From a virus (taxonomy: Duplodnaviria; Caudoviricetes), in IMG/VR virus record IMGVR_UViG_3300012953_000079, positions 1 through 37,751 of that record: 37,751 nt of DNA. One strand, 5' to 3'. The notes beneath the pieces are model-generated. The model was not told the origin of the DNA. It did not search any database and was given only the letters and a program-made list of their open reading frames with translations. Both the position numbers and the translations under genes were made by a program. This document shows positions 338 to 32,299 of the stretch, in pieces (within the stretch, counting starts at the first letter, position 1; each line of letters begins with the position of its first letter).

Positions 338-3300
338 TTATAATATATAAGAATTTCTATTAGATGCAGGTGAAATAGTTTTATTTCTTTGTCCATATAG
401 CTGATAAGCTTTACTTTTAGATCGAGAACTAGACCAATTAGTAAATATTGTAGCAATACTTCCCCGTGTCATATCACGGTTCCAAGCACTACTAAACATA
501 TGGAACATAGATATATTAGCTGCCGAAATCAAATATCCTTGAGTTCCTAATGTATAATTTAAAGTTAATGTGCTTTTTAATTCAATGCTACTGTTATTTC
601 CATTATAATTTTTCTTACTTTCCATTTCTCCTCCTGTTAAGGTTCTTCCTTTTCTAATATGTCTAGTATGAAAACTTCCTTGGTATTTATTTAATGCCTC
701 CTCTGTTAAACCTTCTATGCGCATTTCAATACCAATATCTTTTAAATCTTGGCCACGTACAGTATTAGCATTTTCAAATAAACTTTTTGCATTAGCAACT
801 TGTGTAGGTGTTTGAAATACCCATTTTGCATCTAAAACATCTGTAGTTCTAAATGAATCACCAAAAGCAAAACTATTAATAAACCCTCTTGGACCTTCAA
901 AAAAGTTCATATTTGGAATTAAATTTGCAATATGCGTTGGAATATTTGCTTTTATATCTAAAATTTCTTGTATTCTTCCAGTACCTGTATTAATACGATA
1001 TATTTTATTTAATGCAGTATCTTTTATAAAAGGTCCTGATGGGCCCAAGGATATACTTCCACCAAATCCTGTTCCAGGGTCATAACCGGGTGCTACCCAT
1101 GCATTTACTTTAGGTTTTGAAGTTGAAAAATCTAAATTCCAATATCCATAGTCTAAGTTTTTTGTTAATGCTTCAGCAGCTTTTTGAGTTGCAGCCGGTA
1201 AAGTAGTTTTATTTTTAACATTTTCTTTAAAATCAATTCCTGCATTTACATCTATTAATCCAACTTTTTTACCTGCTGGTATATTTGCAGTATTTAATAA
1301 TATATTTACTGTTAAAATAGATTGATAAGTAGAAGAATTGTTAGTTACTTCAAACCCACCTGAAACTGAAATATTACTTCCACCTTGAATTGGCGCGTAT
1401 GAACCAGATGATGCTAAAGAAAGTTCAGTATTACTACCTCCTATAAATGTAATAGAGTTATTTGTATTAGACCATTTGCTAAATTTTTGTTGATCAGGCT
1501 GATTACTTCTTCTATCTATTGTATATGTAAATTGAATTAATTTTGTTCCTGATGCAGCTGTAGTTTTATTTGAAATTTTATTTTTAAATATAGGCCATGC
1601 TGCAGCAAAATTGCCACCCTGTGACATAAAATCATTTACACCTAAAACTCTTATTAAATTTTTAGCTTGTACTTGATAATCCACAGTTTGAACAAATGTT
1701 TGCACTATAGCTTTTGTAGGCCTAATAGTAAGAGCCGTATCAGCATCAGGCATATTAAATCTACCTGGTTTAAAATCAATAAATAAATTACTACCTCTTT
1801 GTCTTAGATCAAGTGTATCGTCATCATTATATGTTGAGGTAACATTGTTATTAGAAGAATCAAATATATCAAAATCATCAGCTGTAGTTCCTGGTATTAA
1901 CTCTTTTCCAGAAGCAATAGCAAGTTGATATGTATATACACTATTTGTACTTGCAGGTAAACCGGCACTTCCATTTATTGTATTTGGACTTGCTTGTGTT
2001 ATAGTATATAAACCACCTGATGAAGTATCAGTACCACCTGTAGTTGTTGCATTAAATGTTGTAGTTATTGTAACATTTTTGCCTACATAATCAGCTAAAT
2101 CTATAAAAACTTCATCATCATGGTCTACAGAAGCTATATCTATTGCGAATTGAAGTTTTAAAAGATTTGTATTTGACCCACCGCTGGGTGTTAAAGCTGA
2201 TAATAATATATTAGAAAAAACAATAGTATTAATACCTGTTGTATCTGGAACTATTTCAAAATCATCATCATTTGGAGATCGTAATACTTTATGATTAGCA
2301 GCTGTAACAGTTAACTCAATAAAACTAGCTGATGATAATCTAGTTCCTGAATTAACAATAAAATAAGTAAAATCTGAAAAAGAACCAAAGTTTGCTACAA
2401 CTTTAACTGTTCTTTTAACTTGTGCAACTCTATTTATAGTAATATTACCTTGCCAGCTATTTGTATCAAATTCTGTTAATGTGCCTTCTGTAAAAGCAAT
2501 TGTAAATGTATTACTTGCTGTGCCAGCAGGAAATAACAATTGAACATTAAGTTTACCACTATTATCTATTGTTAATGTTTCCTCTTGAAGTGTACTTGAT
2601 GAATCTGTAAATTTATATTTTATTATTGCTCCTTCTTCTCCGAAAATTTCTAATGTTCTTGTTTGCGTTGTAAATATTGCATTTGACGTATCTAATATTC
2701 TTGAAGATATTTTTTTATCTTGTGGTTTTACACTTGAAGCAACAGCAGTTATTTTATAATCTCTTCCTGTTTCTGTAGAGGATGGTAATACTGTTTTTTC
2801 TATAATTCTATATTCTACACCCTTTGCTATTTCTGTTATAATTAATCTAATTGCAGGATTATCACATATTATGTCTGATGGAAATATTTCAAAATCTGTA
2901 TCAGCTGTTATAGTTCTTTCTAATATTGTTTTTTCAGTGTTTGGTTTACCGGTTAAGGTATAAGTATCATCTGTGATATTAGAAGTTACGCCTTCTAATT
3001 TTTGAGTATGTGCTCCACTTAAAGAAACATTATTTTGCACCATTTTACCACTAAATAACAATTTAATAGTAGTGCTAGAATCAGGTTGTTTTATTATTCC
3101 ATGTGTATAATTAATTAATACACCTGTTCCATTTTGTGCAACTGTTGAATTAAGTTTATCTGTAAACCCTGTTTTTGTTATTTGTTTAAAATCTTTAGCA
3201 ACTAATGTAAACCCAACCGGTGGAGTTAATGCTATTACCGCAACTGTTTGACTAATTCTTTCATTTGGTAATTTTACTATATTAAATTCTGATGATGTTA

Positions 3301-6300
3301 CATTTAATAAATTATCTATTTCTGCTAAAAATTTTAAAGTAGTATTTGTTCTGTTATCTGATATTGTATCCATACTAGATGGTCTACCTATACCTTGAAA
3401 ATTAAACTTTTTTAAATCTAAATTAGATACTGTTTTATTTTCACCTGAAATATTTGCAAAATATTTATTTTCTTTACTTTTAAAAGATATGTCATTTGAT
3501 TTTTCTAAATCTGTTTTTATATCAGCAGTCCATCCTTTTGTGCCTTCGTAAACTAATGTTCTAAACTTTTTTACAGCAGAAGGATCATCATTTATTTCTA
3601 ATTGTACCTCTGAAAATCCTTGTACCCCATAAAAATTATTTCTAGGCACGCCAGAAGCCCCATGTGCCCACATATCTCCATTAGAAAAAGTATAATAAGT
3701 GCTATTTAATGAAATTGCGTATTGAGGTACGAATGATTTTCTTGTAGACCAACCATTTATTGCTTCAGAAAAACAAACAGTATCATTGTCAGTGTTAAAA
3801 GAAAGATTATATAAATTATTACCTTCATCATAAGAACCAAAAATAGTTTGAGTTGTTTCTAATCTATCACTAAAAAAGTCACTCATATTAACATCTGAAA
3901 TAGGCGTTAATCCATCTTTAGATAATCTAAATATTTTTCCGTTTTTACGATCTACAAAATAACATCTAAATCCAAAAGCAGAAAAAGATTGTGGATCATT
4001 AGATATACCAAAGTCTCCGTTGTATTCTATAGGATCTCCTATTACTCTGTTAGTAGAAATTAAATTTGTAGAGCCGTCTGCATTGAATAATGCTGATTTA
4101 TTGGCTGGAGTTCTTAATACTTTATTTTCTAAAAAAACAACTAAACTATCGTCCCAAGCATGCAATTTTTGTATTTTACCATATGAAGGTAAGAAGTTTT
4201 TAGTAATAGATTCAGCCTGAATAAATTGATTAGAATTATTTACAGAAGAATTTGGATTAATAATACCGCTCCAAATAAGACCATTATATACACGTTCTTC
4301 TTTATAACCCTCTTCTAATACTGTAGAAGCTTTTACTCCATTTTTAATAAAAGGCGCATTAAAATCATCTCTAATTCTATTAGATTCAACGCCATTACCA
4401 AAACTAAAACAATTAAAATATTTTAAAGTTTGTGTAGTGCCATGATCTATTATTGTATATGCTTTTTCAGTTTCAAAATAAATGTCTAAATCTGTTTTAC
4501 TTTCTAATGGTTCTGTTTCAAATATACCAGGATTAATTACGGTAGTTTTTTCATTATCTCTTTCCTCTAATATTTCCATTCTAGGTTCATTATCCCATGT
4601 ATCTTGACCCCTTACACATATATCATCTAATAAAGGTTGGAATTCACCGTCATCATTAACAAATCTAAAATTTATTCTTTTAAAATGCTTACGGCTTGCA
4701 CTTCCCATTTTTTCTTTAAATCTTTCAACATATACGCTACCTATTTCGTAAATTTGATTATCTCCAACAGGTGTACCGTCGTTATTTATAAATCTTACAA
4801 AATTTCCAACTTTTGCTCTTTTAGCTAGCTGTTCTACTACAGCTTCCATCTTATATGTAGCACATTCGAGAGAAATATTATATTCTAAACTTCCAACTTT
4901 TAATCTTTTGCCACTTTTTTCATCTGAGCCAGGAGTAGCATTACCACCATGACTTACAACAAAATCATTAGTAGGATCTTTACGAGCATTGTCTCTTCCC
5001 CTAGATGTATTATCATATTTATTGTTATTTCTTTTACCATCTTCATTTTTAGAATAAACTCCAATTAAAGGTATAGACTCTTTAGCAAAATATTCTTTAC
5101 CACCAAAAGTTTCTTTTATAATGCCATCTTGTAAAGTTGAATTAATTCTTATTTTAACAAAAAATCTACCGTCAAATTCTTTATCTCCAGCAGCAGAAAA
5201 TTCTTCACTAATATTTATATTAACTCCAAAATTAGTCGTAGTATCACCAATATTTTCACTAGCTTTTTGATATATTATTTCTACATCCTCATCAAATGGT
5301 TCTTCAAAATCTATTTTTATTTCAATGTCGCCTGATGGATGTTGAGACAATCTTTTAATTTTATAAGGTCTACTTTCTTTGCCTAAGTATTCAAAACTAG
5401 CAAATCTTCCAGGCCTAATTTCTTTAGTGTCAGCTAAAGGAACACCATCACTACCGTTTGCTTCTTTTATTTGTATAGACGCAAAGTCTTTTAAAGGTGC
5501 ATTGTTAGCAGCATTGGTTTTATTTGTAACTGTTGTTCCACCATTATTCCCTCCATAATCATCTGTAAAAACAATATCTCCTAATGATAAAATTACTCTT
5601 TTTCTTGCTGTAATAAACTCTGGAGGTTCGTTAGATATATCAATTATTTTATATCTATTGTCTTCTGCTATTACAGCTTTATTATTACCATGATTTTTCT
5701 TAAAAAGTAAATAGTTTTCTTCTGTTACTTTATTTCTATCTGCTGAAGGAAAACTTATATACATAAATCCGTTTTCTTCATCAGGATAAAATCGATCAGA
5801 TGCTAAATTATAATATTCATTAGAAGATTCTTTTATAAAATATTTAAAATATTTAGCCCAAGCAGGAGCAGTATTATTTAATTTTATTTTAAATTCATTT
5901 GTATCAATACTACTACTTTTAGGTATTGTAATAACACTGTTTTTTCCGGCTAAAACAGGAGTTTGTCTATTGTATTCATCAACATAAATAACTCCAAATT
6001 CATAAGTTCTGTCAGACTTTAAACTATTTTTGCTATCATCGGTTTTTTTATTTATAATAATAGTAAAATCAGGATCATTATATATATTATAATTTTGTAC
6101 ATAATTACCGTATATTATTCTATTAGAAACAACCTCTTGTGCTTTTGCTCTTTTTGGTATATTATCCCATTGTCTAAGTAATTGTTTATTATCAACAGTA
6201 GATTTAATTTGTTCTTTTGTAATCTCAAATGTTCCAAAAAAGTCTTTTCTTTTTTCATTTGAAATTATATAAACATTATTATCATTATCTTTTTTTAATA

Positions 6301-7780
6301 ATATATCAATCTCTTTTACATTTTCATCACCTAGCTCAATATCGTTTAATATTATTTTTCTAGCAATGTTTACAGCACCTTCATTATGTGCATTTTTACC
6401 ATCGTATTTAAAATCACCCGGCAAAAAAGCTACTTCAGAAAATGGAGAAAATGTAGAATATGTATTATCATTGTATTTCCATCTATAAGCAAATCTTGGA
6501 AATGTTAATTCATATATAGGGTTGTCCTGCATTAATTCTTGATTTAATACATATGTCTTATCATCAGGTGTTTCTGTATATGATAATATATTAAAAGTAA
6601 TTTGTTTAGAATTAACTAATATTTCTGTTATGATAGCTACAGCTTCCCACTCTTGTGGTTCATCATTACCACTTATATCTTTTTCATTGGGGGTACTAAG
6701 TATTTTATCTCCAACTTTCCAATCAGGTAATTGAGCATATGTTATAGTAAACGATGGATCTGAATTATCAGGTCTTACTAAAACATTACTAGTATAAAGA
6801 TTTTTTTGTACAGTAGCAGTTATTTCTCCATCTCTTACTGTATTTTTTAAAACTAAACTAGGCGCTGTTTGTGGAGCTTTTCTTGCTACAATTATATCTT
6901 TTTCTTCAAATTCTTTTTCAAATTTTTGTTTAATATTTTTACTAATGAATATTTCACCTTTTATTTTTGTTTGTTCAGTTTTTGAATAAGAACCATCATC
7001 TAATAATAATTCATCTGAATATCTTCTAAAATCATTTATATTTATAGCTCTTGGCTGATTTAAATTATCATTAAAATATAAAATATTATTTAATATATTA
7101 GCAGCTGTAATTAAATGGTTTTTACTAAAATCCAAAACACTACTATTTGAAAATTCAAATTTAACAGTTAAATCTCCTAAGTCTGTATTTGTATATTTTA
7201 CATTTTTAAATATATATCCACTTTCAGGATCTAAACATAAAATAGTATTTTTAGGTATAGTTAAAGATATTGAAGGATTATCAACAGTAAGTATAACATT
7301 ATTAGTAATTAACGCTTCTTGATTTGTTGTTGTAGGAAAACTTGCATCATCTATATTAAAAATTTCTTTAGCTTCGGGTATAGATAAATTATCAATAATT
7401 AAATCATTATTAATATTGCTTCTAAAAACTAAAGAATTTATTGTATTTGTTGAATTTGTTTTTGGGTCTATAACTATAGCACATATTTTTTTAGTTAAAG
7501 TATTATATTCATATATACCATCTAATTCATCTGAAGTTACAAACCAATATACAGTTTTATTAAGTTTATCAGATACAGCACCAATACATATACCATTAGT
7601 TAATTCTAATGAGGAAATAGCATCATTACCTAATACATTTTCAATAGCACCTACATCTGAGCCTTCAGAGGTAGACACTTGAATATTTAAAGCGTCTCTA
7701 TATTCACCATTAGGAATAAGTCTTTCGTCAAGGTCTTTATTCATTCGACCTGACGTGAACGTATGCTTTAATTCAGCCAT
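338..7780 (-). CDS. Large tail stabilisation/nozzle (muzzle-like) protein with a long beta-rich C-terminal extension (2480 aa)
   Basis: N-terminus MAELKHTFTSGRMNKDLDERLIPNGEYRDALN and later GNGVESNRIRDDFN / YNGDFGISNDPQSF segments resemble tail stabilisation proteins of crAss-like/Bacteroidetes podoviruses; follows two ring-protein genes. Confidence 0.7.
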   Translation of the reverse strand: MAELKHTFTSGRMNKDLDERLIPNGEYRDALNIQVSTSEGSDVGAIENVLGNDAISSLELTNGICIGAVSDKLNKTVYWFVTSDELDGIYEYNTLTKKICAIVIDPKTNSTNTINSLVFRSNINNDLIIDNLSIPEAKEIFNIDDASFPTTTNQEALITNNVILTVDNPSISLTIPKNTILCLDPESGYIFKNVKYTNTDLGDLTVKFEFSNSSVLDFSKNHLITAANILNNILYFNDNLNQPRAININDFRRYSDELLLDDGSYSKTEQTKIKGEIFISKNIKQKFEKEFEEKDIIVARKAPQTAPSLVLKNTVRDGEITATVQKNLYTSNVLVRPDNSDPSFTITYAQLPDWKVGDKILSTPNEKDISGNDEPQEWEAVAIITEILVNSKQITFNILSYTETPDDKTYVLNQELMQDNPIYELTFPRFAYRWKYNDNTYSTFSPFSEVAFLPGDFKYDGKNAHNEGAVNIARKIILNDIELGDENVKEIDILLKKDNDNNVYIISNEKRKDFFGTFEITKEQIKSTVDNKQLLRQWDNIPKRAKAQEVVSNRIIYGNYVQNYNIYNDPDFTIIINKKTDDSKNSLKSDRTYEFGVIYVDEYNRQTPVLAGKNSVITIPKSSSIDTNEFKIKLNNTAPAWAKYFKYFIKESSNEYYNLASDRFYPDEENGFMYISFPSADRNKVTEENYLLFKKNHGNNKAVIAEDNRYKIIDISNEPPEFITARKRVILSLGDIVFTDDYGGNNGGTTVTNKTNAANNAPLKDFASIQIKEANGSDGVPLADTKEIRPGRFASFEYLGKESRPYKIKRLSQHPSGDIEIKIDFEEPFDEDVEIIYQKASENIGDTTTNFGVNINISEEFSAAGDKEFDGRFFVKIRINSTLQDGIIKETFGGKEYFAKESIPLIGVYSKNEDGKRNNNKYDNTSRGRDNARKDPTNDFVVSHGGNATPGSDEKSGKRLKVGSLEYNISLECATYKMEAVVEQLAKRAKVGNFVRFINNDGTPVGDNQIYEIGSVYVERFKEKMGSASRKHFKRINFRFVNDDGEFQPLLDDICVRGQDTWDNEPRMEILEERDNEKTTVINPGIFETEPLESKTDLDIYFETEKAYTIIDHGTTQTLKYFNCFSFGNGVESNRIRDDFNAPFIKNGVKASTVLEEGYKEERVYNGLIWSGIINPNSSVNNSNQFIQAESITKNFLPSYGKIQKLHAWDDSLVVFLENKVLRTPANKSALFNADGSTNLISTNRVIGDPIEYNGDFGISNDPQSFSAFGFRCYFVDRKNGKIFRLSKDGLTPISDVNMSDFFSDRLETTQTIFGSYDEGNNLYNLSFNTDNDTVCFSEAINGWSTRKSFVPQYAISLNSTYYTFSNGDMWAHGASGVPRNNFYGVQGFSEVQLEINDDPSAVKKFRTLVYEGTKGWTADIKTDLEKSNDISFKSKENKYFANISGENKTVSNLDLKKFNFQGIGRPSSMDTISDNRTNTTLKFLAEIDNLLNVTSSEFNIVKLPNERISQTVAVIALTPPVGFTLVAKDFKQITKTGFTDKLNSTVAQNGTGVLINYTHGIIKQPDSSTTIKLLFSGKMVQNNVSLSGAHTQKLEGVTSNITDDTYTLTGKPNTEKTILERTITADTDFEIFPSDIICDNPAIRLIITEIAKGVEYRIIEKTVLPSSTETGRDYKITAVASSVKPQDKKISSRILDTSNAIFTTQTRTLEIFGEEGAIIKYKFTDSSSTLQEETLTIDNSGKLNVQLLFPAGTASNTFTIAFTEGTLTEFDTNSWQGNITINRVAQVKRTVKVVANFGSFSDFTYFIVNSGTRLSSASFIELTVTAANHKVLRSPNDDDFEIVPDTTGINTIVFSNILLSALTPSGGSNTNLLKLQFAIDIASVDHDDEVFIDLADYVGKNVTITTTFNATTTGGTDTSSGGLYTITQASPNTINGSAGLPASTNSVYTYQLAIASGKELIPGTTADDFDIFDSSNNNVTSTYNDDDTLDLRQRGSNLFIDFKPGRFNMPDADTALTIRPTKAIVQTFVQTVDYQVQAKNLIRVLGVNDFMSQGGNFAAAWPIFKNKISNKTTAASGTKLIQFTYTIDRRSNQPDQQKFSKWSNTNNSITFIGGSNTELSLASSGSYAPIQGGSNISVSGGFEVTNNSSTYQSILTVNILLNTANIPAGKKVGLIDVNAGIDFKENVKNKTTLPAATQKAAEALTKNLDYGYWNLDFSTSKPKVNAWVAPGYDPGTGFGGSISLGPSGPFIKDTALNKIYRINTGTGRIQEILDIKANIPTHIANLIPNMNFFEGPRGFINSFAFGDSFRTTDVLDAKWVFQTPTQVANAKSLFENANTVRGQDLKDIGIEMRIEGLTEEALNKYQGSFHTRHIRKGRTLTGGEMESKKNYNGNNSSIELKSTLTLNYTLGTQGYLISAANISMFHMFSSAWNRDMTRGSIATIFTNWSSSRSKSKAYQLYGQRNKTISPASNRNSYIL

Positions 7781-10308: not shown

Positions 10309-11790
10309 TTAAGCTTGCTGAGTAGCAGTCTTAAATAATACGAAGTTATTAGCTCCTTGAACACACAAACATCTTTCTGATAAGAAGTGTACATTCATTT
10401 CATCAGTAGAATCAGTATAAACTCCACCTACAGATCCAGTGATCCAAGATTTCATTTTTCTATCATCAGCTTCTGAAGCTCTATATCTTACGTGCAAGAA
10501 TGGTCTTTTGATATTTTTACCAAGTTGTTGATCATATACAGTTGAAGTACCTGCAGGAACAAGTACACCATCTATATTACCACCAAGACCTCTTGTAGTA
10601 GCATCATTTAAGTATTTCCAGTCAGTCTTATAAAAATCATAAGAACCTCTTCTGAAACCATTAAATCCTAAATTAAGTGCCATATCCTCACTGTTGTTAA
10701 ATACGCCAAAGTTAACGCCACCTGTTGAGTGTGGATTTAACCCTGCAAGCATATCATCAAAAGAAAGTGCAGTAGCTCTATTTAAGAAAAGCATATTTTC
10801 TTCTATAGCACCTTGCTTGTCTAAGTTTTTAAGAATTTCATCAAAATCCCCTAGAGATGTTCTTGCAGCACCATCTGAATTATCTAATGCATTTTCTCCA
10901 GAGTTAAAGTTTTGATAAATATTACCTCTTGACTCTATAGCAGCAAAAAGACCTTCTGTACCAACAAAACCTTCGTTTGCAGCAGTACCTGAGCCAGTAA
11001 CAGAGGCTAATTCACCTTCTATCATTGACATTTCAAGATAATCTTCAAATCTAAGTCTTGTTTCATGTTCTGATTTTAAATACCATAAGTATCCAGACGC
11101 TCCATTTTCAGTTGTTACTTCAACCCAGCCAATTTGTGCAGTATCAGAACCAGAGATAGAATATTTATCTTTGATAATGATAGGGTTGTTACTAAACTTC
11201 TGAAAACCTGCATCTATAGATCCATCCATACCAGCAGTTCCTTTTTTGAATTCTGAACCATATACAAATACTGAACAACTAACAGAACCACCAGATGTTA
11301 ATCCAGCTGCTGTTAATGTAGCACCTTTATAAGGAGCAATATCAAAAGTATTTGTAGCTACAGCTTTAACAACTCCTTTTACTACTTTATCAGCAGTCCA
11401 AGTAACCCCATCATTAGGGTGAGTTCCAGACTCTATAACTACAACAGTTTGTCCAACTCTAACAGCATGGCCATTAGATGTAACTCTATTGTTTGTTGCA
11501 GTATCAACGTTTACACCGCTATATGCAATATGTAATCTTCCTTGTTCTGACCAAATTATTTGATCTGAAGCAGAAGGAATTTCAGCACCGACCATACGAA
11601 GGAAAGAAGAAACAGATCTGTTACCATATCTTTCTACTTCTTTTTCGTATACATCGGGTAAAAATTGTTGAGCGAACGTTCCTCCACCTGACCCAGAGTC
11701 AAATGTTAGATAGTTGCCCGAAAACAACGTTTTTGTTGGAGTAGGCGTAAGTCCCGCAGGAAACGACCCACTCGTACTAAATAATCCCAT
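10309..11790 (-). CDS. Major capsid protein (493 aa)
   Basis: QQFLPDVYEKEVERYGNR, WSEQGRLH and GFRRGSYDFYKTDWKYLND motifs typical of Bacteroidetes podovirus capsids; terL-portal-scaffold-capsid order; followed by a terminator. Confidence 0.85.
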   Translation of the reverse strand: MGLFSTSGSFPAGLTPTPTKTLFSGNYLTFDSGSGGGTFAQQFLPDVYEKEVERYGNRSVSSFLRMVGAEIPSASDQIIWSEQGRLHIAYSGVNVDTATNNRVTSNGHAVRVGQTVVVIESGTHPNDGVTWTADKVVKGVVKAVATNTFDIAPYKGATLTAAGLTSGGSVSCSVFVYGSEFKKGTAGMDGSIDAGFQKFSNNPIIIKDKYSISGSDTAQIGWVEVTTENGASGYLWYLKSEHETRLRFEDYLEMSMIEGELASVTGSGTAANEGFVGTEGLFAAIESRGNIYQNFNSGENALDNSDGAARTSLGDFDEILKNLDKQGAIEENMLFLNRATALSFDDMLAGLNPHSTGGVNFGVFNNSEDMALNLGFNGFRRGSYDFYKTDWKYLNDATTRGLGGNIDGVLVPAGTSTVYDQQLGKNIKRPFLHVRYRASEADDRKMKSWITGSVGGVYTDSTDEMNVHFLSERCLCVQGANNFVLFKTATQQA

Positions 11791-11807: not shown

Positions 11808-13112
11808 TTATTGTTTAAATCTTACTCTTAGTCTGTCAGCATCATCTCCACTTACAGCTTTAACTTTAAATCCTGCATTCGTAGTAACATCTTGATGAGT
11901 AGCTCGAGGTTCCATATCTATATTTTTAGATTTGGCCATAGACTCTTTAATAGCGTCTGCCTTTCCTTGCTCATAAAAATGATTAGCTATTGAATCAGCA
12001 TTCATTGCTGTAAACAAAGCTTTATGATAACCAGCAGCATCATTCATTTCGTTTTCTTTATTTACATATTTACTAACTAATGAATTAATATCTGACTGTG
12101 TATCTTTAATTTTGTTTGTATCTCTAACATTAAATCTATATCTGTTTTCGCCTACCTTATATTCAAAACCTTTGAAATTTTGGGAAAATACTTCATTTGT
12201 TTTTTGTTCAAATATTGATCTATGTCTTTGAGCTGTTTCCGTTGAGACTTGCTGCTCTTGTTTATAATCATCGTAGAATTTAACCGCTTCTCTTTGTTCT
12301 GGGGTTAACTTTGAGCTTAACTTAAGGTCATTGTAATATTTTTGCTTCAGACCTGTGAGATTTGACTTTGCTTCCGCGATTGATTCTTTCAATCTAAGCT
12401 TTTTTCTTTTAACATCTCTTTCTTCATCTTCTTCTTCGTCATAAGAAAAAGTGTCTTCCATTAAAAAGCTTATTTCTTCTTCAGATAAATGTGGTTTTGT
12501 TTGTCTATAGTGTTCACGCAAGACATCCATATCCTCCATTTTACTGTAATCTTTGTTTAATTTTACATAATCTTCAAGACTACCTCCAGTTTCATTCATA
12601 AATTCAACTAGTTTATTAATATTTTCCGGTAATTCTTGTGTTTCTTCTTTATTATTTACGTTTTTTGGCTCTTCTTTAAGCTTATTTGGAATATCTTTTA
12701 TTTTTTCTTGTAAACTTTTTTCTTCTTCTTCATTTACAAGTTCTAATATAGGCTCTTCTTTATTAGCTTTTTCTTCTTCTTGCTTAATTTTGCTAACACT
12801 TTCTCCGGAAGATTTTTCATCTTCTGTTTGCTTGTTTTCTTCACGAACTTCTCCGCTAGTTTCGGATTCGTTGCGTACAGGTACCTCATCTGTGCTTTGC
12901 TTTCCAGTGGCATCTTCTTCTTTTTTAAAATTACGTAAATCTATTTTTATTGTACCATCATCAGCAACTTCAGTTACTGATTTTTTTGGTTCTTCTTTTT
13001 TTTCTTCAACCTTTTCTTCAGCTTTAACTTCTTCTTTAGGTTGTTCTGTTGTTTCTTCAACTTTTTCTATTGGTTCAACAACAACTTCTTCTTGTTCTTT
13101 TTTATTTGACAT
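11808..13112 (-). CDS. Acidic scaffolding-like protein (434 aa)
   Basis: Glu/Lys-rich low-complexity N-half, helical C-half ending HFYEQGKADA; between portal and capsid. Confidence 0.6.
   Translation of the reverse strand: MSNKKEQEEVVVEPIEKVEETTEQPKEEVKAEEKVEEKKEEPKKSVTEVADDGTIKIDLRNFKKEEDATGKQSTDEVPVRNESETSGEVREENKQTEDEKSSGESVSKIKQEEEKANKEEPILELVNEEEEKSLQEKIKDIPNKLKEEPKNVNNKEETQELPENINKLVEFMNETGGSLEDYVKLNKDYSKMEDMDVLREHYRQTKPHLSEEEISFLMEDTFSYDEEEDEERDVKRKKLRLKESIAEAKSNLTGLKQKYYNDLKLSSKLTPEQREAVKFYDDYKQEQQVSTETAQRHRSIFEQKTNEVFSQNFKGFEYKVGENRYRFNVRDTNKIKDTQSDINSLVSKYVNKENEMNDAAGYHKALFTAMNADSIANHFYEQGKADAIKESMAKSKNIDMEPRATHQDVTTNAGFKVKAVSGDDADRLRVRFKQ
12743..12913 (-). CDS. Small basic protein overprinted in the +1 frame of the scaffold gene (56 aa, MPLESKAQMRYLYATNPKLAEKF...)
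   Basis: Hand-translated ATG-to-TAG ORF with A-rich leader and local GC/codon anomaly; resembles MPFKSxxQRRY(L/M)YAxxP small phage proteins. Confidence 0.6.
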   Translation of the reverse strand: MPLESKAQMRYLYATNPKLAEKFVKKTSKQKMKNLPEKVLAKLSKKKKKLIKKSLY

Positions 13113-13141: not shown

Positions 13142-15565
13142 CTAGCGAGGTTCAAATGCCTCTAAATTAAATCCGCTTCCCATTGTATCATTACCAGCAG
13201 ATTCAAATTCTTGCTCTCCTTTTCTATCTTTTCTTTGTTCAATTAATTTAGATTGCTGAGTAGCTTGAATTCTAGTCCTTTCGTCTTTCCTATCTTCTTT
13301 AAATTTTTCTTTGCTAGTAAAGGCTTCGGACTCTTTTTCTTTTAATGACATATTTAATTGAAATTCATATGACATTAATTCTTTTTTCAATTCTTTTTCT
13401 TGTTGTAACTTTTGTATTTCAAGACTTGACTCAAGTTGAGCTAATTCTGCTTTTTGTTGAGTTAATGCTTGTTGCTTTTGTACATCAGCTTCGGCTGCAG
13501 CTTGTGCTGCTTGTGCATTTGATTGAGTTTGCATTTGTATATTTTGTTGTTGACGTTGCAAATCATCATTCATTTTCTTTTTTCTTCTTACTTTTAATAA
13601 CTGATTAGCTAATTTAATATTTTTAATTTCTCTAATATCAATTGCATCTTCAAGAAATATTTGATCTTTTGAAAGAGCTGCTTGTATATTATTTTCAAGT
13701 CTTGCTTTTTCTTCTTCGTCTGGAGCAAGCTCTATAAATATTCCAAAATCATGCAAATGCATGTTCTTAATATCATCTAGCGTTCCAACATTAAATCTTC
13801 CTATTGAAGATATAAATGCTTCTCTGGTTGGTGAATATTCTAATATATCTGATATTCTTAAACTAACTGCTTCAGCAACTCTTGCTGTTAAATATAAACT
13901 AGCTTGTAATATATGTCTTGTAGCTGTATTTGAATTAGCAGCGGCTAACTTCTGTACACCAACTAAAGCATATTGGTCTGGCTTACTGCCATCTCTTGCT
14001 TCATTTAATCCGGTTACATCTCTTATCATTTGAAGATAATAATTATATGTTTGAATTAAAGAAGCTATTTTATTATTACCTCCATTAGATGTAAGTTCTT
14101 GTATTGGAACTTTAGCTGGGTTCATATCACCGTCTTGTGTTAGAGATCTACCAATAACAGAACCTGTTTGAAAAAACATATTTAATGCTTCTTGTGGATT
14201 ATAATTTGTACCATTACCTAAATCTATTTCAGCTAATCCATCTGCATCAAGATAAACACCATCTGGTATCATTCTTGACATTACTTGTTGTAATTTTAAA
14301 TGCGTTAATTGAATCATATCAGCAAAACTTGTAATTCTGCTAACTAAAGATTCAATTCTTCCTTTATATATTCTAGGTGCTACAATATGGTAATTCATCA
14401 TTACTTTTGTTGTATCACTTTTAGGTCTAATCATATTTTTAGCAAGACCCCATTTAAGAAGCTTGTTAACTCCTAATACATAAGCCCCATCATATACTAC
14501 GTCTATTGATCTGCTTGCTTTTTCGAAAAGAGTTTCAGCATCTTCTGGCGGATTGAATTGATCATTTTTTTGAATTGCTTTAGAAGCTCCTGTAGCCGTT
14601 GTTTTAATTTTGTAAACTTCATTGTTGTATGTTTTATAATTAAAGTATAATACTTGTATACTATTTGAATCTAATACGCTGTCTTCATTAATGTATCTAT
14701 TATGTGAAGATGCACTTTGGTAACCTTGACTTGATATTTTTTTAAGATCATCATCTGTTAATTCAGGAAATTGTTTTGCTATTTCGTTTATTGTTACAGA
14801 TTTTACTTCACCTATATAATAAATATCATCAAAATAAGGAGAATATGTGTATGAATATACTAAATCAGCAGGATCAACACATCTAACTTTAATACCTTCT
14901 GCTTTATTAAACTCATGTTTTACAGCCGCAATACCTAATGTAACTAAATCATAATTTACTTTTCTTTGTGTTAAATCATAATTATTTTGATTTAATATGG
15001 TATTTATAGCTTGTTCTTCTGCAATTTCTATAGCTTGTTTATATTCTGTTTGCATATGCAAAGATAGCTCTTGATCATCAGAAGGTAATTTATTAGGATC
15101 AGTACTAAATATATTTATTCCTAATTTTTCTTGTACATTATCATTAAATTGTTTTGCTTGCATATCATCCATAATTTTTTGAACATAATCTGTTCTTTCT
15201 TTTACAGATGAAGGATCTTGAGAAAAAGCTTTAATATCAAATAATCTATCTGACATACCATTTACAACTATATCTACAAATTTTGGTATAATTGGTACAG
15301 GTTTCCAGTCTAAATTTAAATAAGACAAATCACCATTAATAGATAATTCATCTTTATATTTTTTTACTGATTGTTCTCCTCTTGCATACAAACGAAGTCT
15401 ATGATATTCATCCCTATTGGAATAAAATCTTGTAGCACCATTGTCTCTTTTAAACCACTCGTGTTCAATTGCTTTTGCTACTTTTTCTCCATATTCAAAA
15501 GACGCTTTTTCTTCATCAGAAGCTATTTGACTAGGAAATGAACTTTTTAAAATTGTTTCAGCCAT
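13142..15565 (-). CDS. Portal protein (807 aa)
   Basis: YLNLDWKPVPIIPKFVDIVVNG and IRDVTGLNEARDG motifs, Gln-rich C-terminal coiled coil; immediately follows terminase. Confidence 0.85.
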   Translation of the reverse strand: MAETILKSSFPSQIASDEEKASFEYGEKVAKAIEHEWFKRDNGATRFYSNRDEYHRLRLYARGEQSVKKYKDELSINGDLSYLNLDWKPVPIIPKFVDIVVNGMSDRLFDIKAFSQDPSSVKERTDYVQKIMDDMQAKQFNDNVQEKLGINIFSTDPNKLPSDDQELSLHMQTEYKQAIEIAEEQAINTILNQNNYDLTQRKVNYDLVTLGIAAVKHEFNKAEGIKVRCVDPADLVYSYTYSPYFDDIYYIGEVKSVTINEIAKQFPELTDDDLKKISSQGYQSASSHNRYINEDSVLDSNSIQVLYFNYKTYNNEVYKIKTTATGASKAIQKNDQFNPPEDAETLFEKASRSIDVVYDGAYVLGVNKLLKWGLAKNMIRPKSDTTKVMMNYHIVAPRIYKGRIESLVSRITSFADMIQLTHLKLQQVMSRMIPDGVYLDADGLAEIDLGNGTNYNPQEALNMFFQTGSVIGRSLTQDGDMNPAKVPIQELTSNGGNNKIASLIQTYNYYLQMIRDVTGLNEARDGSKPDQYALVGVQKLAAANSNTATRHILQASLYLTARVAEAVSLRISDILEYSPTREAFISSIGRFNVGTLDDIKNMHLHDFGIFIELAPDEEEKARLENNIQAALSKDQIFLEDAIDIREIKNIKLANQLLKVRRKKKMNDDLQRQQQNIQMQTQSNAQAAQAAAEADVQKQQALTQQKAELAQLESSLEIQKLQQEKELKKELMSYEFQLNMSLKEKESEAFTSKEKFKEDRKDERTRIQATQQSKLIEQRKDRKGEQEFESAGNDTMGSGFNLEAFEPR

Positions 15566-15566
15566 G

Positions 15567-17774
15567 CTATTTTATTATTGTTGAATGAGATCCTTTATTA
15601 TTATATCTCGATATTTTAATATCTAAACTAGGTTTTATATATTTAGGTTTTGGATGATATAAATGTCTATTACACGCCATAATTGCTAAACCTGAACTTA
15701 TTGTTGCATCAAATTTAGTTCTTTTATTTATATCAAACTTAGCCCAATCATTAAGCGTATTATTAAAATATATGTTTCCACCGCCATTTTGGTCAATGCC
15801 AACATAATTATTTATATACGTTTCAATTGCAGCCGCGTGTGCTTGCTTTATGTCTTCTGATGTATTTGGAATACCTCCTATTTCTTTTTCTGTTATAGAC
15901 AATTTATTCCAAACTTTATCAGGTCTATTCATTGAATAGCCTCTGTATCCTCTTCTTTTTAAATGATATAATAATCTAGGTTTATTATTTTCTGCAAGTA
16001 CAGGCATACCATAATAAACTAAAGCCATTAATACATCTTCAAAAAACATTTCAGCTGTTTGAGGTCTTGCTACATATTCTAAAAAGAATGAATTAGCAGG
16101 AGCATCTTCCATACTAAACTTTGTTAATCCGTGTAAGGCTCCTTTTGAACCTTTTCCGTCTGTTGTTCCAGATATATCATATGAATCACATCCAAATGCA
16201 CCCATATGTTCATTACCTGGTGTTTTTATACCATTTTTTAGTACAATATTGTTTTCTAAATTTTTAGATGGTGTCCACGAAATAAAAAACCTACCGTTTT
16301 TATTTGGAGTAAACATTACTTTAGAATCTTTTATTCCGTTTTCCCAAGAAAAAGAACCTTGCGTAATATATCCTTTACGCATTAAATCATCATTATAATC
16401 AATCTGCTCATAAATTTTACTTAAATTGAATATACTGTTTTTAGTTTCATCTCTAAAAGCATGCTCCTCTGTTCTTGGAAATTGTCTATAATATTCATTT
16501 AAAGCATCACCATCGTGCTTTAATCCTTCAACTTCATTATTCCAAAAATCAATTACGCCGGTGTCAATAAATTCGCTATCGTTTCCAAGGACTTCTTTTT
16601 CAGGTGTTCCGAATACAGGATGTCCATAAGAATCAATGAATCCTTCGTAGTTCCATTCCATAGGTATGAACAAACTATATAATCCCGAGCTAGTCTGGCC
16701 ATTACGATTTCGTTTTGTGACATCTGAATCATAATAAAGTTTTTTAAAATTATCGCCTCCTTTATCTAATGAGTTTGATGTTGAACCCATCAAACATTTT
16801 CCTATTACTTTACTTCCAAGTCTGAGTGTTGTTTTTGTAACTCTCCAGTTATTTAAAATATTATCAGGTCTTTCCCATTTGCCAGATTCATCGTGTACTA
16901 AAATACGAAGCTTTTCCCCATCATAAGAGTTGTCACCTGTGTTTTTCCAGTCGATAGTGGTATCCAATCCCTCTGGAATGTCATTGTCAAACCCAACGGA
17001 AGCTTTGAGGTTATTCTTTGTAAGCTTTGACGCTGGAACTCTGTAAGCAAGCTCTGTCTTAGGTCTGTCCATACCATCTTGAATGGGTCGGAAGAAGAAA
17101 GGATAATTGGTACTAATTGGAACAACCTTGTCTGTAAACATTTTTTTAGCGTCTGCTCCAGACTTTGAAAGTATCCCAAATCGTGCATCTTTTGTAATTG
17201 TAGCTTGATTGACGGTTTCGCAACTTGCCATAAAAGAGAATCCTGATCTTCTATTTTTAAGATAGCATAATCCATAACACCTTTGGTCGGCTTTACAAGC
17301 TTCCCAAAATATATAGAATACTCTATTTGCTTCGCGAAAATCTGGTTTTCCAACGTCAATTTTTGTCCATTGCAAATACATGTAGTGAGTACCAGTAATA
17401 TAAGTGGGAACATTGTTGTTAATAAACCAAAACCCGTTTTCTCTTTTGTTAAATTCTTCATCAATATAATTGTACCATTTATTTTTAAAAACAGTAGGAT
17501 AAGTATCCCATTGAAATCTTGTTTTTATTTGATCTAGTTCTTTAGGATACACATGTGCTTCCCATCTATTATTTGTATTAGTTATTTTTTTTGGAGATGG
17601 TGGTAAAGCTATTTTTAAACTTTGTATTTCAATTATATCACCTATAGCACCTGTTTTACTAATAACAATTATATCATGCTCTTTATTATATCCATAATCC
17701 CATTTTTTTGCTTTGTTATATCTTTTTATAACATTTATTTTAATAGGATTAATTAATTTAATTAAATCGTACAT
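15567..17774 (-). CDS. terL: Terminase large subunit (735 aa)
   Basis: Walker A-like LKNRRSGFS, Walker B ILVHDESGKW, coupling motif GSTS, RNase H-like nuclease motifs FGCDSYD and FDATISSG. Confidence 0.9.
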   Translation of the reverse strand: MYDLIKLINPIKINVIKRYNKAKKWDYGYNKEHDIIVISKTGAIGDIIEIQSLKIALPPSPKKITNTNNRWEAHVYPKELDQIKTRFQWDTYPTVFKNKWYNYIDEEFNKRENGFWFINNNVPTYITGTHYMYLQWTKIDVGKPDFREANRVFYIFWEACKADQRCYGLCYLKNRRSGFSFMASCETVNQATITKDARFGILSKSGADAKKMFTDKVVPISTNYPFFFRPIQDGMDRPKTELAYRVPASKLTKNNLKASVGFDNDIPEGLDTTIDWKNTGDNSYDGEKLRILVHDESGKWERPDNILNNWRVTKTTLRLGSKVIGKCLMGSTSNSLDKGGDNFKKLYYDSDVTKRNRNGQTSSGLYSLFIPMEWNYEGFIDSYGHPVFGTPEKEVLGNDSEFIDTGVIDFWNNEVEGLKHDGDALNEYYRQFPRTEEHAFRDETKNSIFNLSKIYEQIDYNDDLMRKGYITQGSFSWENGIKDSKVMFTPNKNGRFFISWTPSKNLENNIVLKNGIKTPGNEHMGAFGCDSYDISGTTDGKGSKGALHGLTKFSMEDAPANSFFLEYVARPQTAEMFFEDVLMALVYYGMPVLAENNKPRLLYHLKRRGYRGYSMNRPDKVWNKLSITEKEIGGIPNTSEDIKQAHAAAIETYINNYVGIDQNGGGNIYFNNTLNDWAKFDINKRTKFDATISSGLAIMACNRHLYHPKPKYIKPSLDIKISRYNNKGSHSTIIK
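16553..16732 (-). CDS. Putative overprinted ORF B in the +1 frame of terL (59 aa, MIQMSQNEIVMARLARDYIVCSYLWNG...)
   Basis: Hand-translated; A/T-rich leader AAAAAACTTTATT-ATG; terL uses many C-ending codons across this span. Confidence 0.35.
   Translation of the reverse strand: MIQMSQNEIVMARLARDYIVCSYLWNGTTKDSLILMDILYSEHLKKKSLETIANLLTPA
16898..17461 (-). CDS. Putative overprinted ORF A in the +1 frame of terL (187 aa from ATG) with an N-terminal hydrophobic/lipoprotein-like signal
   Basis: About 560 nt without a stop in an AT-rich gene; atypical terL codons; MKNLTKEK-hydrophobic stretch-LTTC N-terminus. Confidence 0.4.
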   Translation of the reverse strand: MKNLTKEKTGFGLLTTMFPLILLVLTTCICNGQKLTLENQIFAKQIEYSIYFGKLVKPTKGVMDYAILKIEDQDSLLWQVAKPSIKLQLQKMHDLGYFQSLEQTLKKCLQTRLFQLVPIILSSSDPFKMVWTDLRQSLLTEFQRQSLQRITSKLPLGLTMTFQRDWIPLSTGKTQVTTLMMGKSFVF

Positions 17775-17779
17775 TCTAT

Positions 17780-18052
17780 CTATTTAGATCTTCTTTCAGC
17801 AAACCCTTTAAACGGTTTTTTTACATTATCAGAAACATCTATAACATTTTTTTCACTTTCAAGTCTAGTTAATATTTCAAAAGCATCAAATATTGCTAAT
17901 TTTTTTGTAGCTGCTGCATTTTTTAATCTATCTGCAGCTAAATCCTCATTAGGATCGTTTAAAATAATTTTTTCTTCTGCTACTTTTATTAACTCATCTA
18001 CTGCTTTATAACCAGCTTGGATTATATTCAATTTCATTTTTTTGTGTTCCAT
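17780..18052 (-). CDS. Putative terminase small subunit (90 aa)
   Basis: Small helical protein immediately upstream of terL; assignment mostly positional. Confidence 0.5.
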   Translation of the reverse strand: MEHKKMKLNIIQAGYKAVDELIKVAEEKIILNDPNEDLAADRLKNAAATKKLAIFDAFEILTRLESEKNVIDVSDNVKKPFKGFAERRSK

Positions 18053-18599
18053 AGTTTATTGCTATTGAATTATCAGGAACTCTATATAGTCTTTCATTAT
18101 CAAAAACAAACTCATATTCGCTGTTTTGTGTAAAGCCTACTAAATCATCTTTTTTAAGATTTAAGCTTCTTAAAAGTGGCGAAACGTGCTTTAAAACGCC
18201 TACAAGAGGCTTTTCTTTACTTTCGTTAAATTTATCTTGATTAAAAACTGGTTTTACAAAACTATAACCATCTATTGTTTTCCATTCATTATTTCTTTTA
18301 TATAAAAATATTTGATCTATATAACAAAAATATTTATTTTCTTTAAAAAAACTTGAACCATGTTTATCTATACCGTTCATACCATAGAATCTTCTAAATA
18401 TATTATGATGAACAATTACTTCATCATTTATTTTTAAAACAGAATTATTAATTGGTGTTTCAATTATTTTGCCTATTCTATTTACAAATTTATGATCTTC
18501 TATTGAGGTATTTAAAATTAATTCCTTTTTATCAACTTGTTTTTTATTGTTATACACACCATTTACTGGAGATATAATATAACAATGAAGATGTTTCAT
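18006..18599 (-). CDS. Tandem GroES-like (co-chaperonin fold) protein (197 aa)
   Basis: Two GroES-like units: YIISP...ELILNT...GKIIETP...LKINDEVIVH and YSFVKP...VGVL...LKKDDLVGF...EYEFVFDNERLYRV...I. Confidence 0.55.
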   Translation of the reverse strand: MKHLHCYIISPVNGVYNNKKQVDKKELILNTSIEDHKFVNRIGKIIETPINNSVLKINDEVIVHHNIFRRFYGMNGIDKHGSSFFKENKYFCYIDQIFLYKRNNEWKTIDGYSFVKPVFNQDKFNESKEKPLVGVLKHVSPLLRSLNLKKDDLVGFTQNSEYEFVFDNERLYRVPDNSIAINYGTQKNEIEYNPSWL

Positions 18600-18988: not shown

Positions 18989-19366
18989 TTATTCAGGTAA
19001 AGCAGGACCTATATAATCCCATTGTTGTGTTTCTTCATTCCAATTATATCTATTATTTACATTAGGAAATTCTACAGGAGGTTCCCACTGGCAGCTATCT
19101 TCATTTAAAACCCAAGAATTATAAGGTTTAGGTGGTATAAAAGCATCTCTCACACTATCGTATGTATAACCAATAGAAGCATAATTTTTTCTAAAGTTAT
19201 TATTATAAGAAGTTTGTACCCATGTAGCAGAACCAAATAATGAATTTAAAAACTCCTTACCTTTTGCTTCATCTTCTGTCCCGTCTTCTTTTTTAATAAC
19301 TTCATTGTTTACTACATGTACTATTTCAACAATATTATTTGAATCAATTTTTGCAAAATGTGCCAT
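18989..19366 (-). CDS. Adhesin-associated small protein, MAHFA type (125 aa)
   Basis: WVQTSYN..FRKNYA.IG..YD...DAFIPPKP..SW.LNE motif; paralogue of 31892-32296; follows a Gly-rich gene. Confidence 0.7.
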   Translation of the reverse strand: MAHFAKIDSNNIVEIVHVVNNEVIKKEDGTEDEAKGKEFLNSLFGSATWVQTSYNNNFRKNYASIGYTYDSVRDAFIPPKPYNSWVLNEDSCQWEPPVEFPNVNNRYNWNEETQQWDYIGPALPE

Positions 19367-19367
19367 A

Positions 19368-20258
19368 TTAAGCTGTATAACTACCGCTACCGGTATATTT
19401 TAAAATTGTAAATCCATTTACACTAGACGTATCTACATTAGGACTACCACTTGTTGTTCCCGAATAATTTGCATTTGGTATTTTTAAAAAAACAACACCT
19501 GATCCTCCTGCTGCTCCAACACCTGCATTATTCCAGCAGTTTCTACCACCACCACCTCCGCCGAGATTAGCAGTGCCAGCTGTAGGATTACCATATTGTC
19601 CGTTTGCGGCTCCTCCACCGCCATTACCTCCAGCTCCGCCTGCTGCTGTATAATAACCAGCACCACCTCCGCCACCAGCATAATATGTTGCTGTTCCTGT
19701 AATACTACTTTGGGTACCAACTCCTCCGCCACCACCGGCACTATATGTACTAGAACCACCGTTTCCGCCGTTTCCGCCGTCACCTCCACCACCACCGGCA
19801 TTAATAACACCTCCTCCGGTACCACCATTTCCTCCGGCAGATGTTCCAGTACCTGAACCACCTGAATTACCACTTTTTTGGCCGCCGCCACCACAGCCTC
19901 CATCAGCACCAGATGTTCCCGCGTCTCCAGTACCTGCACCACCACCGCCATTTACAGTATAAGTACCTCCACTTCCATCAATATTTGTAATTGAAGTATT
20001 TCCCCCATTAGATGTAGTTCCAGCTGTGTAACTATTAGGTCCCCCTGCACTACCTGCACCTATTGTTATTGCTAATACTGTACCAACAGCTGTTGTGCCA
20101 CTTGTTGCTTCATATGCAGCACCAGCACCACCACCTCCACCACCAGTGGAATTTATAGCACCGCCACCGCCACCGGCACCGGCTGCTACCATAAGAAAAT
20201 TAAAAGTGTATCCTGAAGGTGCGTAAGATCTAGGGGCTAAAAGTTTTCTTCTTAACAT
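19368..20258 (-). CDS. Glycine-rich adhesin-like protein (296 aa)
   Basis: Many GGGGG runs with variable loops, C-terminal GGSGVVFLKI; paralogue of 32300-33238; architecture reminiscent of T-even gp38 polyglycine adhesins. Confidence 0.7.
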   Translation of the reverse strand: MLRRKLLAPRSYAPSGYTFNFLMVAAGAGGGGGAINSTGGGGGGAGAAYEATSGTTAVGTVLAITIGAGSAGGPNSYTAGTTSNGGNTSITNIDGSGGTYTVNGGGGAGTGDAGTSGADGGCGGGGQKSGNSGGSGTGTSAGGNGGTGGGVINAGGGGGDGGNGGNGGSSTYSAGGGGGVGTQSSITGTATYYAGGGGGAGYYTAAGGAGGNGGGGAANGQYGNPTAGTANLGGGGGGRNCWNNAGVGAAGGSGVVFLKIPNANYSGTTSGSPNVDTSSVNGFTILKYTGSGSYTA

Positions 20259-32296: not shown

Positions 32297-32299
32297 AAT

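What the first reader, a model, noticed from the sequence alone, without database searches (positions are those of the whole stretch)
12743..12913. Hidden basic microprotein overprinted inside the acidic scaffold gene
Seen: the scaffold stretch DATGKQSTDEVPVRNESETSGEVREE has unusual GC-rich codons. Its +1 frame reads MPLESKAQMRYLYATNPKLAEKFVKKTSKQKMKNLPEKVLAKLSKKKKKLIKKSLY (56 aa, ATG with A at -3, TAG stop). From memory, not a search, this resembles stand-alone small phage proteins of the MPFKSxxQRRY(L/M)YAxxPxxAxxF...LPEKV type. Inference: a strongly basic peptide co-encoded with a strongly acidic scaffold, possibly a capsid-internal DNA-binding or assembly factor that gene callers miss.
Basis: partly seen in the sequence, partly recalled or inferred. 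Interest (0 to 1): 0.8.

Follow-up and report, generated by a model that had tools for sequence, protein, structure and literature searches.

The report
Portable small gene inside head gene
A conserved 56-codon gene for a very basic protein lies out of frame inside a phage head gene; relatives occur as ordinary free genes in unrelated phages and hidden inside a second, giant gene, so it is likely an old gene that travels as a two-frame cassette and likely binds DNA during head assembly.

Summary
Confirmed, on the minus strand (12913→12743), in the +1 frame of a 434-aa acidic gene between portal and capsid. ATG plus an open frame is ordinary here (35% of random recodings). The evidence is comparative: 117 of 117 non-redundant host genes carrying the peptide keep its ATG, variation follows the peptide's codons, and Flavobacterium-type upstream adenines are kept. 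It is not a de novo overprint. It belongs to a huge unstudied family (phrog_1375-like; 3,051 clusters) found as free genes in actino- and cyanophages, often in head modules, and as an N-terminal module of longer proteins. One subtype sits both in this host gene and in a giant structural gene, including the cultured Elemovirus (unannotated). Of 77 host-selected relatives, 34 carry it, 16 carry an unrelated basic peptide at the same site, and 27 carry neither, so it is a swappable accessory. Function is untested; a DNA-binding head accessory is my best guess (~0.4). The one homologue with proteomics (Patience gp10) is expressed but has only 1 virion spectrum. 'Scaffold' remains an inference. This scan noted the same arrangement earlier in other genomes; ten literature searches found no description.

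The parts
12743..12913 (-). Nested gene, 56 aa, ATG to TAG, +1 frame of the host gene; family A (phrog_1375-like)
   Evidence: (phrog_1375 E 3.4e-4)
12800..12913 (-). Conserved core, residues 1-38; predicted short helices 6-15, 17-26, 29-33 (pLDDT 87-97 for residues 1-40); the Lys-rich tail beyond it is variable
12914..12926 (-). A-rich upstream stretch (A at -3, -6, -11, -12, -13), likely translation-initiation region of the Bacteroidota type
   Evidence: PMC6847099 section 15
12834..12914 (-). GC-rich dual-coded stretch (host codons 67-93)
   Evidence: free copies never have this frame open
11808..13112 (-). Host gene, 434 aa, acidic, scaffold-like by inference; no Pfam, PHROG or PDB fold match; Elemovirus homologue annotated 'structural protein'
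12630..13112 (-). Predicted disordered N-terminal linker of the host protein (residues 1-161, nearly all pLDDT < 50) that carries the nested gene
13142..15565 (-). Portal gene, upstream neighbour
   Evidence: phrog_6547 E 3.5e-159
10309..11790 (-). Virion structural gene, likely major capsid, downstream neighbour
   Evidence: phrog_13704 E 1.1e-102; capsid identity inferred from position
15567..17774 (-). Terminase large subunit, same head module
   Evidence: phrog_6681

Best explanation
A conserved 56-codon reading frame lies in the +1 frame of the predicted-disordered acidic linker of a phage head gene; it is likely translated from its own A-rich start on the head-operon message and likely makes a small helical, lysine-rich accessory protein that would bind DNA during head filling or inside the head. 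Shown: the frame, its conservation under selection, family membership, free and nested relatives. Inferred history: an old free-standing small gene was recoded until its -1 frame was open and acidic, became part of a linker, and now moves by recombination as a dual-frame cassette between relatives and between two unrelated structural genes; a second, unrelated basic peptide can take the same slot. Odds: real expressed gene about 0.93; peptide older than the host-frame stretch about 0.75; DNA-binding head accessory about 0.4.
For: Selection: 117 of 117 non-redundant carriers start with ATG in +1; the host codon there is GAT (95) or AAT (22), never GAC/AAC (background 959 GAC to 2,339 GAT); the next codon is GCC in 116 of 117 (background 226 of 2,494 Ala codons). 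In the 27 host-selected carriers: 27 of 27 and 26 of 27. Entropy at host positions 1/2/3 is 0.85/0.63/0.59 in the overlap against 0.74/0.45/1.23 in the C-domain (106 of 117 rows). For a second subtype, outside the search pattern, peptide identity is 0.82 against 0.61 for the host frame (19 rows). No host-frame homologue with a lost peptide: 165 of 180 carriers hit, 0 of 46 non-carriers. Start signal: 4.29 of 5 key adenines against 2.38 at same-phase controls (PMC6847099). Family: 3,051 clusters; free genes in 023Pt_psg01, FlowerPower, Barnyard and Patience. A homologue is translated: Patience gp10, 7 stringent spectra. History: 0 of 37 free copies have the host-type frame open; one subtype in 62 scaffold-type and 15 giant genes; A, B and empty linkers interleave on the host tree. 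Function: 11 of 18 free loci have a head/packaging or connector gene among their nearest ORFs; 18 K+R in 56 residues; the unrelated capsids and hosts point to a universal partner (inference).
Against: No translation evidence for any nested copy. Patience gp10 is labelled 'virion protein' but has 1 particle spectrum against 4 at 30 min and 2 at 2.5 h, while neighbours gp111 and gp12 have 33 each in particles. The 201phi2-1 relative gp383 is not flagged as a virion protein although its neighbour gp382 is. Relatives in cluster B-type mycobacteriophages lie near the right genome end, genes 73-78, and one free copy lies by ribonucleotide reductase. The 11 of 18 count has no baseline, and viral contig sets favour structural genes. 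27 of 77 relatives carry no known peptide in the linker, and 0 of 10 such contigs (20-79% complete) had one elsewhere. No nucleic-acid-binding fold was matched. Most carriers were found by peptide similarity, which inflates conservation. Basic charge partly follows from shifting a Glu-rich frame.
Confidence: 0.42

Rival explanations
1. Real gene, but the protein acts in the cytoplasm on RNA or ribosomes (translation control or rescue) and only rides on the strong late message.
For: Patience gp10 spectra are mostly in infected cells. The alternative occupant, family B, scored 0.92 by language-model features to a cluster with ArfA on 23% of members (low recognition score). A and B exclude each other in 30 contigs, apart from one weak hit.
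Against: A and B are unrelated (hhalign probability 0.1). The ArfA model matched 0 of 5 B contigs and B has no PDB match. Exclusion may only reflect one slot. Free A genes cluster in head modules.
Confidence: 0.2
2. Real gene; the N-terminal 40 residues are a docking or capsid-targeting module that binds capsid, portal or scaffold protein, and carry cargo when fused.
For: The module is at the extreme N-terminus of many 100-1,000 aa proteins with varied C-termini. Invariant M1, P2, S5, Q8, P17 and aromatic positions suggest a binding surface. Head-module context.
Against: It occurs with unrelated capsids and portals in actino-, cyano- and Bacteroidota phages, which a specific protein partner would not easily allow.
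Confidence: 0.22
3. The +1 frame is reached by ribosomal frameshifting or slippage on the A-run and gives a scaffold-peptide fusion, not a separate protein.
For: A-rich run before the ATG. A few called proteins are host N-terminus plus peptide (P0004, P0007, P0009, P0024).
Against: Each such fusion comes from one contig, as an indel error would. The ATG is invariant, free genes begin at the same Met, and +1 stops lie only 1-10 codons upstream in the carriers printed.
Confidence: 0.05
4. Classical de novo overprinting: the peptide arose in this host gene and the free genes were liberated from it later.
For: +1 internal overlaps are the commonest de novo type (PMC8227390 passages). Family A is spread over deep branches of the marine clade.
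Against: Free copies span actinophages, cyanophages and others and keep no trace of an open host frame (0 of 37). The host-frame stretch was seen only in carriers among the 226 host genes tested. The overlap departs from genome codon use in both frames, so codon use does not settle it.
Confidence: 0.07
5. Not a gene: a by-product of a Glu/Lys-rich linker.
For: ATG plus 37 open codons arises in 35% of recodings. Long Lys-rich +1 frames also occur in empty linkers.
Against: Profile score twice the null maximum, codon-position pattern, free homologues and a translated homologue.
Confidence: 0.04

Closest known systems
phrog_1375 / unnamed small basic phage proteins (Barnyard gp9, Patience gp10, FlowerPower gp48, 023Pt_psg01 URG13095.1)
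   Same: Same N-terminal motif; phrog_1375 E 3.4e-4; family profile to Patience gp10 probability 91%, E 1.1e-6; predicted models of uncharacterised relatives superpose at 0.5-0.6 A (Foldseek E 0.02-0.05).
   Different: Those are free genes; here the gene is wholly nested out of frame. No function is known for any.
phiX174 gene E nested in gene D (PMC8227390, passages read)
   Same: Small gene wholly inside another phage gene on the same strand; that D is a scaffolding protein and E is in the +1 frame is recalled.
   Different: E is the de novo frame and (recalled) a membrane lysis protein. Here the nested peptide is soluble-looking, has free homologues, is probably the older frame, and changes host gene.
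Hepatitis B polymerase spacer, proposed to have arisen de novo over the older S gene (PMC8227390, passage read)
   Same: A linker of the long protein is the new frame laid over an older gene.
   Different: One fixed overlap in one virus family; no swappable cassette, no second host gene, no alternative passenger.
Lambda Rz1 in Rz, two-component spanins (recalled, not checked in a paper)
   Same: Embedded, out-of-frame gene whose family also occurs separated.
   Different: Rz/Rz1 are obligate partners. Here the host gene often lacks the peptide or holds an unrelated one, and the peptide moves to another host gene; no lipoprotein or membrane features.
Out-of-frame proteins found by mass spectrometry inside Patience genes 91 and 20 (PMC4324244 section 11)
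   Same: Shows that tailed phages translate wholly embedded same-strand frames.
   Different: Those had no database relatives and weak conservation.
Small basic DNA-associated virion proteins such as phiX174 J and T4 internal proteins (recalled)
   Same: Proposed working model: small, basic, head-associated.
   Different: No sequence or fold match found; virion location not shown.

Membership tests
phrog_1375-like small phage proteins (family A) | Profile match over the N-terminal core | tested here: met
   Window peptide E 3.4e-4; 5 of 8 other nested family A peptides E 5e-5 to 2e-3; family profile recovers Barnyard gp9, a strong phrog_1375 member, at 8.6e-9
Functional nested (internal-overlap) gene | Start codon and open frame conserved beyond host constraint | tested here: met
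Functional nested (internal-overlap) gene | Suppressed synonymous variation in the host frame | tested here: met
   Host third-position entropy 0.59 against 1.23-1.27; peptide-based ascertainment applies
Functional nested (internal-overlap) gene | Protein shown to be translated from the nested copy | not testable with these tools
   Only a free homologue has spectra; RNA contigs give no strand or translation
De novo overprinted gene (Keese-Gibbs criterion) | Nested frame has the narrower phylogenetic range | tested here: not met
   Peptide in 3,051 clusters and unrelated phages; host-frame stretch only in carriers among 226 host genes. The host-frame stretch was not searched in the large databases.
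Virion-internal DNA-binding protein | Present in purified virions | tested here: inconclusive
   Patience gp10: 1 particle spectrum; 201phi2-1 gp383 not flagged
Virion-internal DNA-binding protein | Binds DNA | not testable with these tools
   Charge only; no fold match
DUF3008 (PF11450) | Pfam profile match | tested here: not met
   0 of 5 genomes at E <= 1; no Pfam hit; Atlas 0.84 is a lead only
Capsid scaffolding protein (host gene) | Between portal and capsid gene, acidic, helical with disorder | tested here: met
Capsid scaffolding protein (host gene) | Homology to a proven scaffold; absent from mature virions | tested here: inconclusive
   No family or fold match; Elemovirus homologue annotated 'structural protein', basis of that label not seen
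ArfA (PF03889), for family B only | Pfam profile or solved-structure match | tested here: not met
   0 of 5 contigs; no PDB hit; DUF7230 22 bits, below its cut-off of 27; Atlas lead

The most novel reading that the evidence does not exclude
Disordered acidic linkers of phage structural proteins act as gene slots: pre-existing small basic genes, once recoded to be readable in two frames, become portable dual-frame cassettes that are swapped between relatives and between unrelated host genes (scaffold-like gene, giant structural gene), with at least two unrelated passengers. The passenger here belongs to one of the largest unstudied phage microprotein families and is a general head or DNA-binding module, also used as an N-terminal tag.
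Probability: 0.55. Interest if true: 0.82.

Novelty: new variant of a known kind. Interest (0 to 1): 0.68.

Why it matters
Nested genes are usually taken to be new frames written over old genes. Here the comparative evidence points the other way: an old, widespread gene is captured inside a linker and then moves as a unit, which is a different route to gene overlap. It marks a class of genes that annotation drops in an abundant aquatic phage lineage (about 2,000 stored viral stretches match the family motif and about 1,700 the family B patterns, nested and free together), and a very large microprotein family with no function. A cultured carrier (Elemovirus, 68 records) and genetically tractable free homologues (Patience gp10, Barnyard gp9) make the question directly testable.

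Tried and rejected
PDB sequence searches gave only repeat-summed matches to designed beta-propellers, with no single stretch significant: rejected. Foldseek PDB and VIA-align (best Z 3.1, rmsd 5-6 A, HMG-box-like rows) gave nothing usable; this does not show a new fold. Homodimer prediction for residues 1-40 returned no verdict (0.01) and is not used. Host-protein fold search found nothing. tblastn of the window peptide against GenBank phages found nothing; free relatives were reached through other family members. Metatranscriptome contigs cover parts of the region, one 163-base piece over 12804-12966 with no differences at depth about 3, but cannot show strand, level or transcription. No family A match in crAss001, phi14:2, phi17:2, phi13:2 or Panino (0 of 5); a weak phrog_1375 hit in crAss001 (E 0.006) was set aside because the control rang in 5 of 14 genomes. 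phiKZ gp165.1 (E 0.028) is only a lead. DUF3008 and ArfA membership failed. The idea that the cassette simply adds length was rejected: median N-terminal lengths are 128 (A), 130 (B) and 132 (empty). The careful tree did not finish in three runs; only the quick tree is used. PMC7474061 and PMC11965321 passages gave nothing on this family. The Elemovirus paper could not be read.

Full report
Observation. The peptide is read from the minus strand, 12913 to 12743, ATG to TAG, in the +1 frame of a 434-aa ORF (13112-11808) from its codon 67. The host gene lies between a portal gene and a virion structural gene in a terminase-portal-host-capsid block. Its GenBank relatives (77 records) are Elemovirus, Cellulophaga and Maribacter phages at about 35% identity, so a Bacteroidota host is inferred. 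The window is the whole 37,751-base record, 63% complete, with one copy of the peptide family. The GC excess is real (0.48 against 0.30). The host protein has no Pfam, PHROG or fold match; its model is disordered over residues 1-161 and helical after. 'Scaffold' is therefore an inference.

Chance. A Glu/Lys-rich frame gives Lys-rich, often open +1 frames by itself: random synonymous recoding gave ATG plus 37 open codons in 35% of 20,000 draws. But the real peptide scored 63.7 bits against a profile of 79 called database proteins, against at most 31.7 for 2,865 scored draws of 3,000 (I did not check each of the 79 for being free-standing).

Conservation. From 78 loci picked by the host protein alone, 77 unique full-length genes split into 34 with this family (A), 16 with a second family (B) and 27 with neither. 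Adding peptide-picked loci gave 226 unique host genes and 155 representatives under 90% identity, 117 with A. All 117 are in +1 and start with ATG. The host residue there varies (Asp 95, Asn 22) but always uses the T-ending codon, and the next Ala uses GCC in 116 of 117 against 226 of 2,494 elsewhere. The 27 host-picked representatives give 27 of 27 and 26 of 27. Over 26 codons in 106 rows (11 with indels dropped) the most variable position is the peptide's third, and host third-position entropy falls from about 1.25 to 0.59; mean identity is 0.61 in the peptide frame and 0.53 in the host frame. A host-frame profile hit 165 of 180 carriers and 0 of 46 non-carriers, so no decayed copy was seen in this gene. 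Most carriers were found through the peptide, which favours these results. Adenines at -3, -6, -11, -12, -13 average 4.29 of 5 against 2.38 at same-phase control sites; A at -3, -6, -12 and -13 promotes initiation in Flavobacterium johnsoniae (PMC6847099, abstract and section 15 read).

The family. The peptide matches phrog_1375 weakly. A profile found 188 short called proteins and 3,051 clusters at 50% identity, many with the module at the extreme N-terminus of longer proteins; of 53 such proteins scanned, a few carry HD, ParB-like or minor-head-protein regions. A motif scan gave 67 nested and 37 free distinct copies after edge loci were dropped; 72 host frames matched the window's host protein. 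Free annotated genes occur in 023Pt_psg01, FlowerPower, Barnyard (gp9), Patience (gp10) and 201phi2-1 (gp383), unannotated ones in P-RSP2, C75C1 and S-CBS2, and 486 actinophage records hold a Barnyard gp9 relative. Five other Bacteroidota phages had none. The predicted core is two to three short helices at high confidence, matching only uncharacterised phage proteins.

A portable cassette. In Elemovirus MT497071.1 a 42-aa family A ORF sits in +1 at codon 1220 of the 3,694-aa 'structural protein', unannotated; 68 records carry it. MW202828.1 has one inside its giant gene. For this subtype, 77 of 80 loci are nested (the other 3 lie near contig ends): 62 in genes of the window's host type and 15 in frames of 1,481 aa or more; outside the search pattern the peptide frame is again better kept (0.82 against 0.61, 19 rows). 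None of 37 free copies has the host-type frame open (mean 4.8 stops in 35 codons), and AT-rich free copies use TTT for Phe3 in 24 of 26, which makes a host-frame stop before Lys. So nesting needed recoding, which explains the GC-rich codons. By the phylogenetic-range criterion (PMC8227390, passages read) the peptide is the older frame; this direction is inferred, not shown. Family B is unrelated to A, nested with an ATG in 90 host genes (74 of 80 peptide-picked, 16 host-picked), and under the same kind of selection (identity 0.89 against 0.66, 64 rows). It resembles DUF7230 below cut-off. On a quick tree of the host C-domain (92 rows, SH-aLRT only) A needs 13 changes, B 8 and empty 11, with 6, 3 and 6 forced by strong branches; sisters at 78-87% C-domain identity differ in occupant. 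Whole contigs: A in 11 of 11 A contigs, 0 of 19 B contigs (2 rated complete) and 0 of 10 empty ones; B in 19 of 19, with one weak partial hit in an A contig. Linker length is alike in all classes, which suggests replacement by recombination.

Function. Of 20 free loci I scanned the neighbours of 18 (89 of 101 ORFs; two look-alikes left out): 11 have a head/packaging or connector gene nearby, 3 more share the layout of the 023Pt_psg01 portal-to-head block, one is by an endolysin, one by ribonucleotide reductase, two unknown; there is no baseline and a known collection bias. Barnyard 9 lies in the left-arm block before the minor capsid gene and Patience 10 just after the portal. Pope et al. list Patience gp10 as a virion protein (PMC4324244; abstract, passages, section 11 and Table S1 read), but the table shows 1 particle spectrum, 4 at 30 min and 2 at 2.5 h. 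It proves translation of a family member, not virion location; Lys-rich small proteins give few tryptic peptides (own knowledge). Since the family accompanies unrelated capsids and hosts, a universal partner is likeliest, so I commit to a DNA-binding head accessory (about 0.4), ahead of a protein-docking tag (0.22) and an RNA or ribosome role (0.2).

Novelty. Nested phage genes are known (phiX174 E in D; embedded frames in Patience), and a new linker over an older gene has been proposed for hepatitis B. I found no paper on this family or arrangement in ten searches (seen as listings unless named above); the library lacks most subscription journals, the Elemovirus paper was not available, and small-gene catalogues or supplements that I did not see may list the family. 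A sequence look-up in this scan's notes found nothing, but a word look-up found eight earlier notes on other genomes with the same arrangement, including the giant-gene and family B forms; I had reached these results before reading them and do not count them as support. Verdict: a real nested gene, new variant of a known kind, interest 0.68.

Noticed in passing
L037, L040, L043, L048 (2283-2402) and L337-L416: Family B: an unrelated 40-47 aa basic peptide nested in +1 at the same linker site, under clear selection; DUF7230-like below cut-off, ArfA link only a language-model lead.
   Followed up: yes
L022, L034, L036 (host codons about 65-112): In three 'empty' host genes a 43-46 aa +1 ORF with ATG and a shared C-terminal end; possible third passenger family.
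   Followed up: no
L430, near codon 1086 of the Elemovirus giant gene: A second, truncated copy of the family A start (10 codons, then a stop) about 135 codons upstream of the intact one.
   Followed up: partly
P0004, P0007, P0009, P0024: Called proteins that join the host N-terminus to the peptide, each from one contig; likely indel errors, not tested.
   Followed up: partly
window 29945-31501, 29701-29967, 18006-18599 (-): Phage-encoded GroEL and two GroES-like genes; free family A genes in another phage group also lie just before a GroES gene.
   Followed up: no
window 18989-20258 and 31892-33238 (-): A two-gene block occurs twice: phrog_7759 followed by a glycine-rich phrog_2295 gene.
   Followed up: no
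window 35354-35602 and 27628-27987 (-): Their families (phrog_6437; DUF6321/phrog_10346-4689-727) appear elsewhere fused to or next to the family A module (P0139, L280, L214).
   Followed up: no
window 19484-19951 (-), 16898-17464 (-), 25784-26557 (+): Long alternative-frame ORFs (155, 188, 257 aa) inside other genes; the first has no Pfam or PHROG match.
   Followed up: partly
window, host gene codon 280 onward, +1 frame: A second 39-aa +1 ORF in the host gene; its start and length vary among relatives, probably a by-product.
   Followed up: partly
window 338-7780 (-): 2,480-aa structural gene with a crAssvirus muzzle C-terminal domain match.
   Followed up: no
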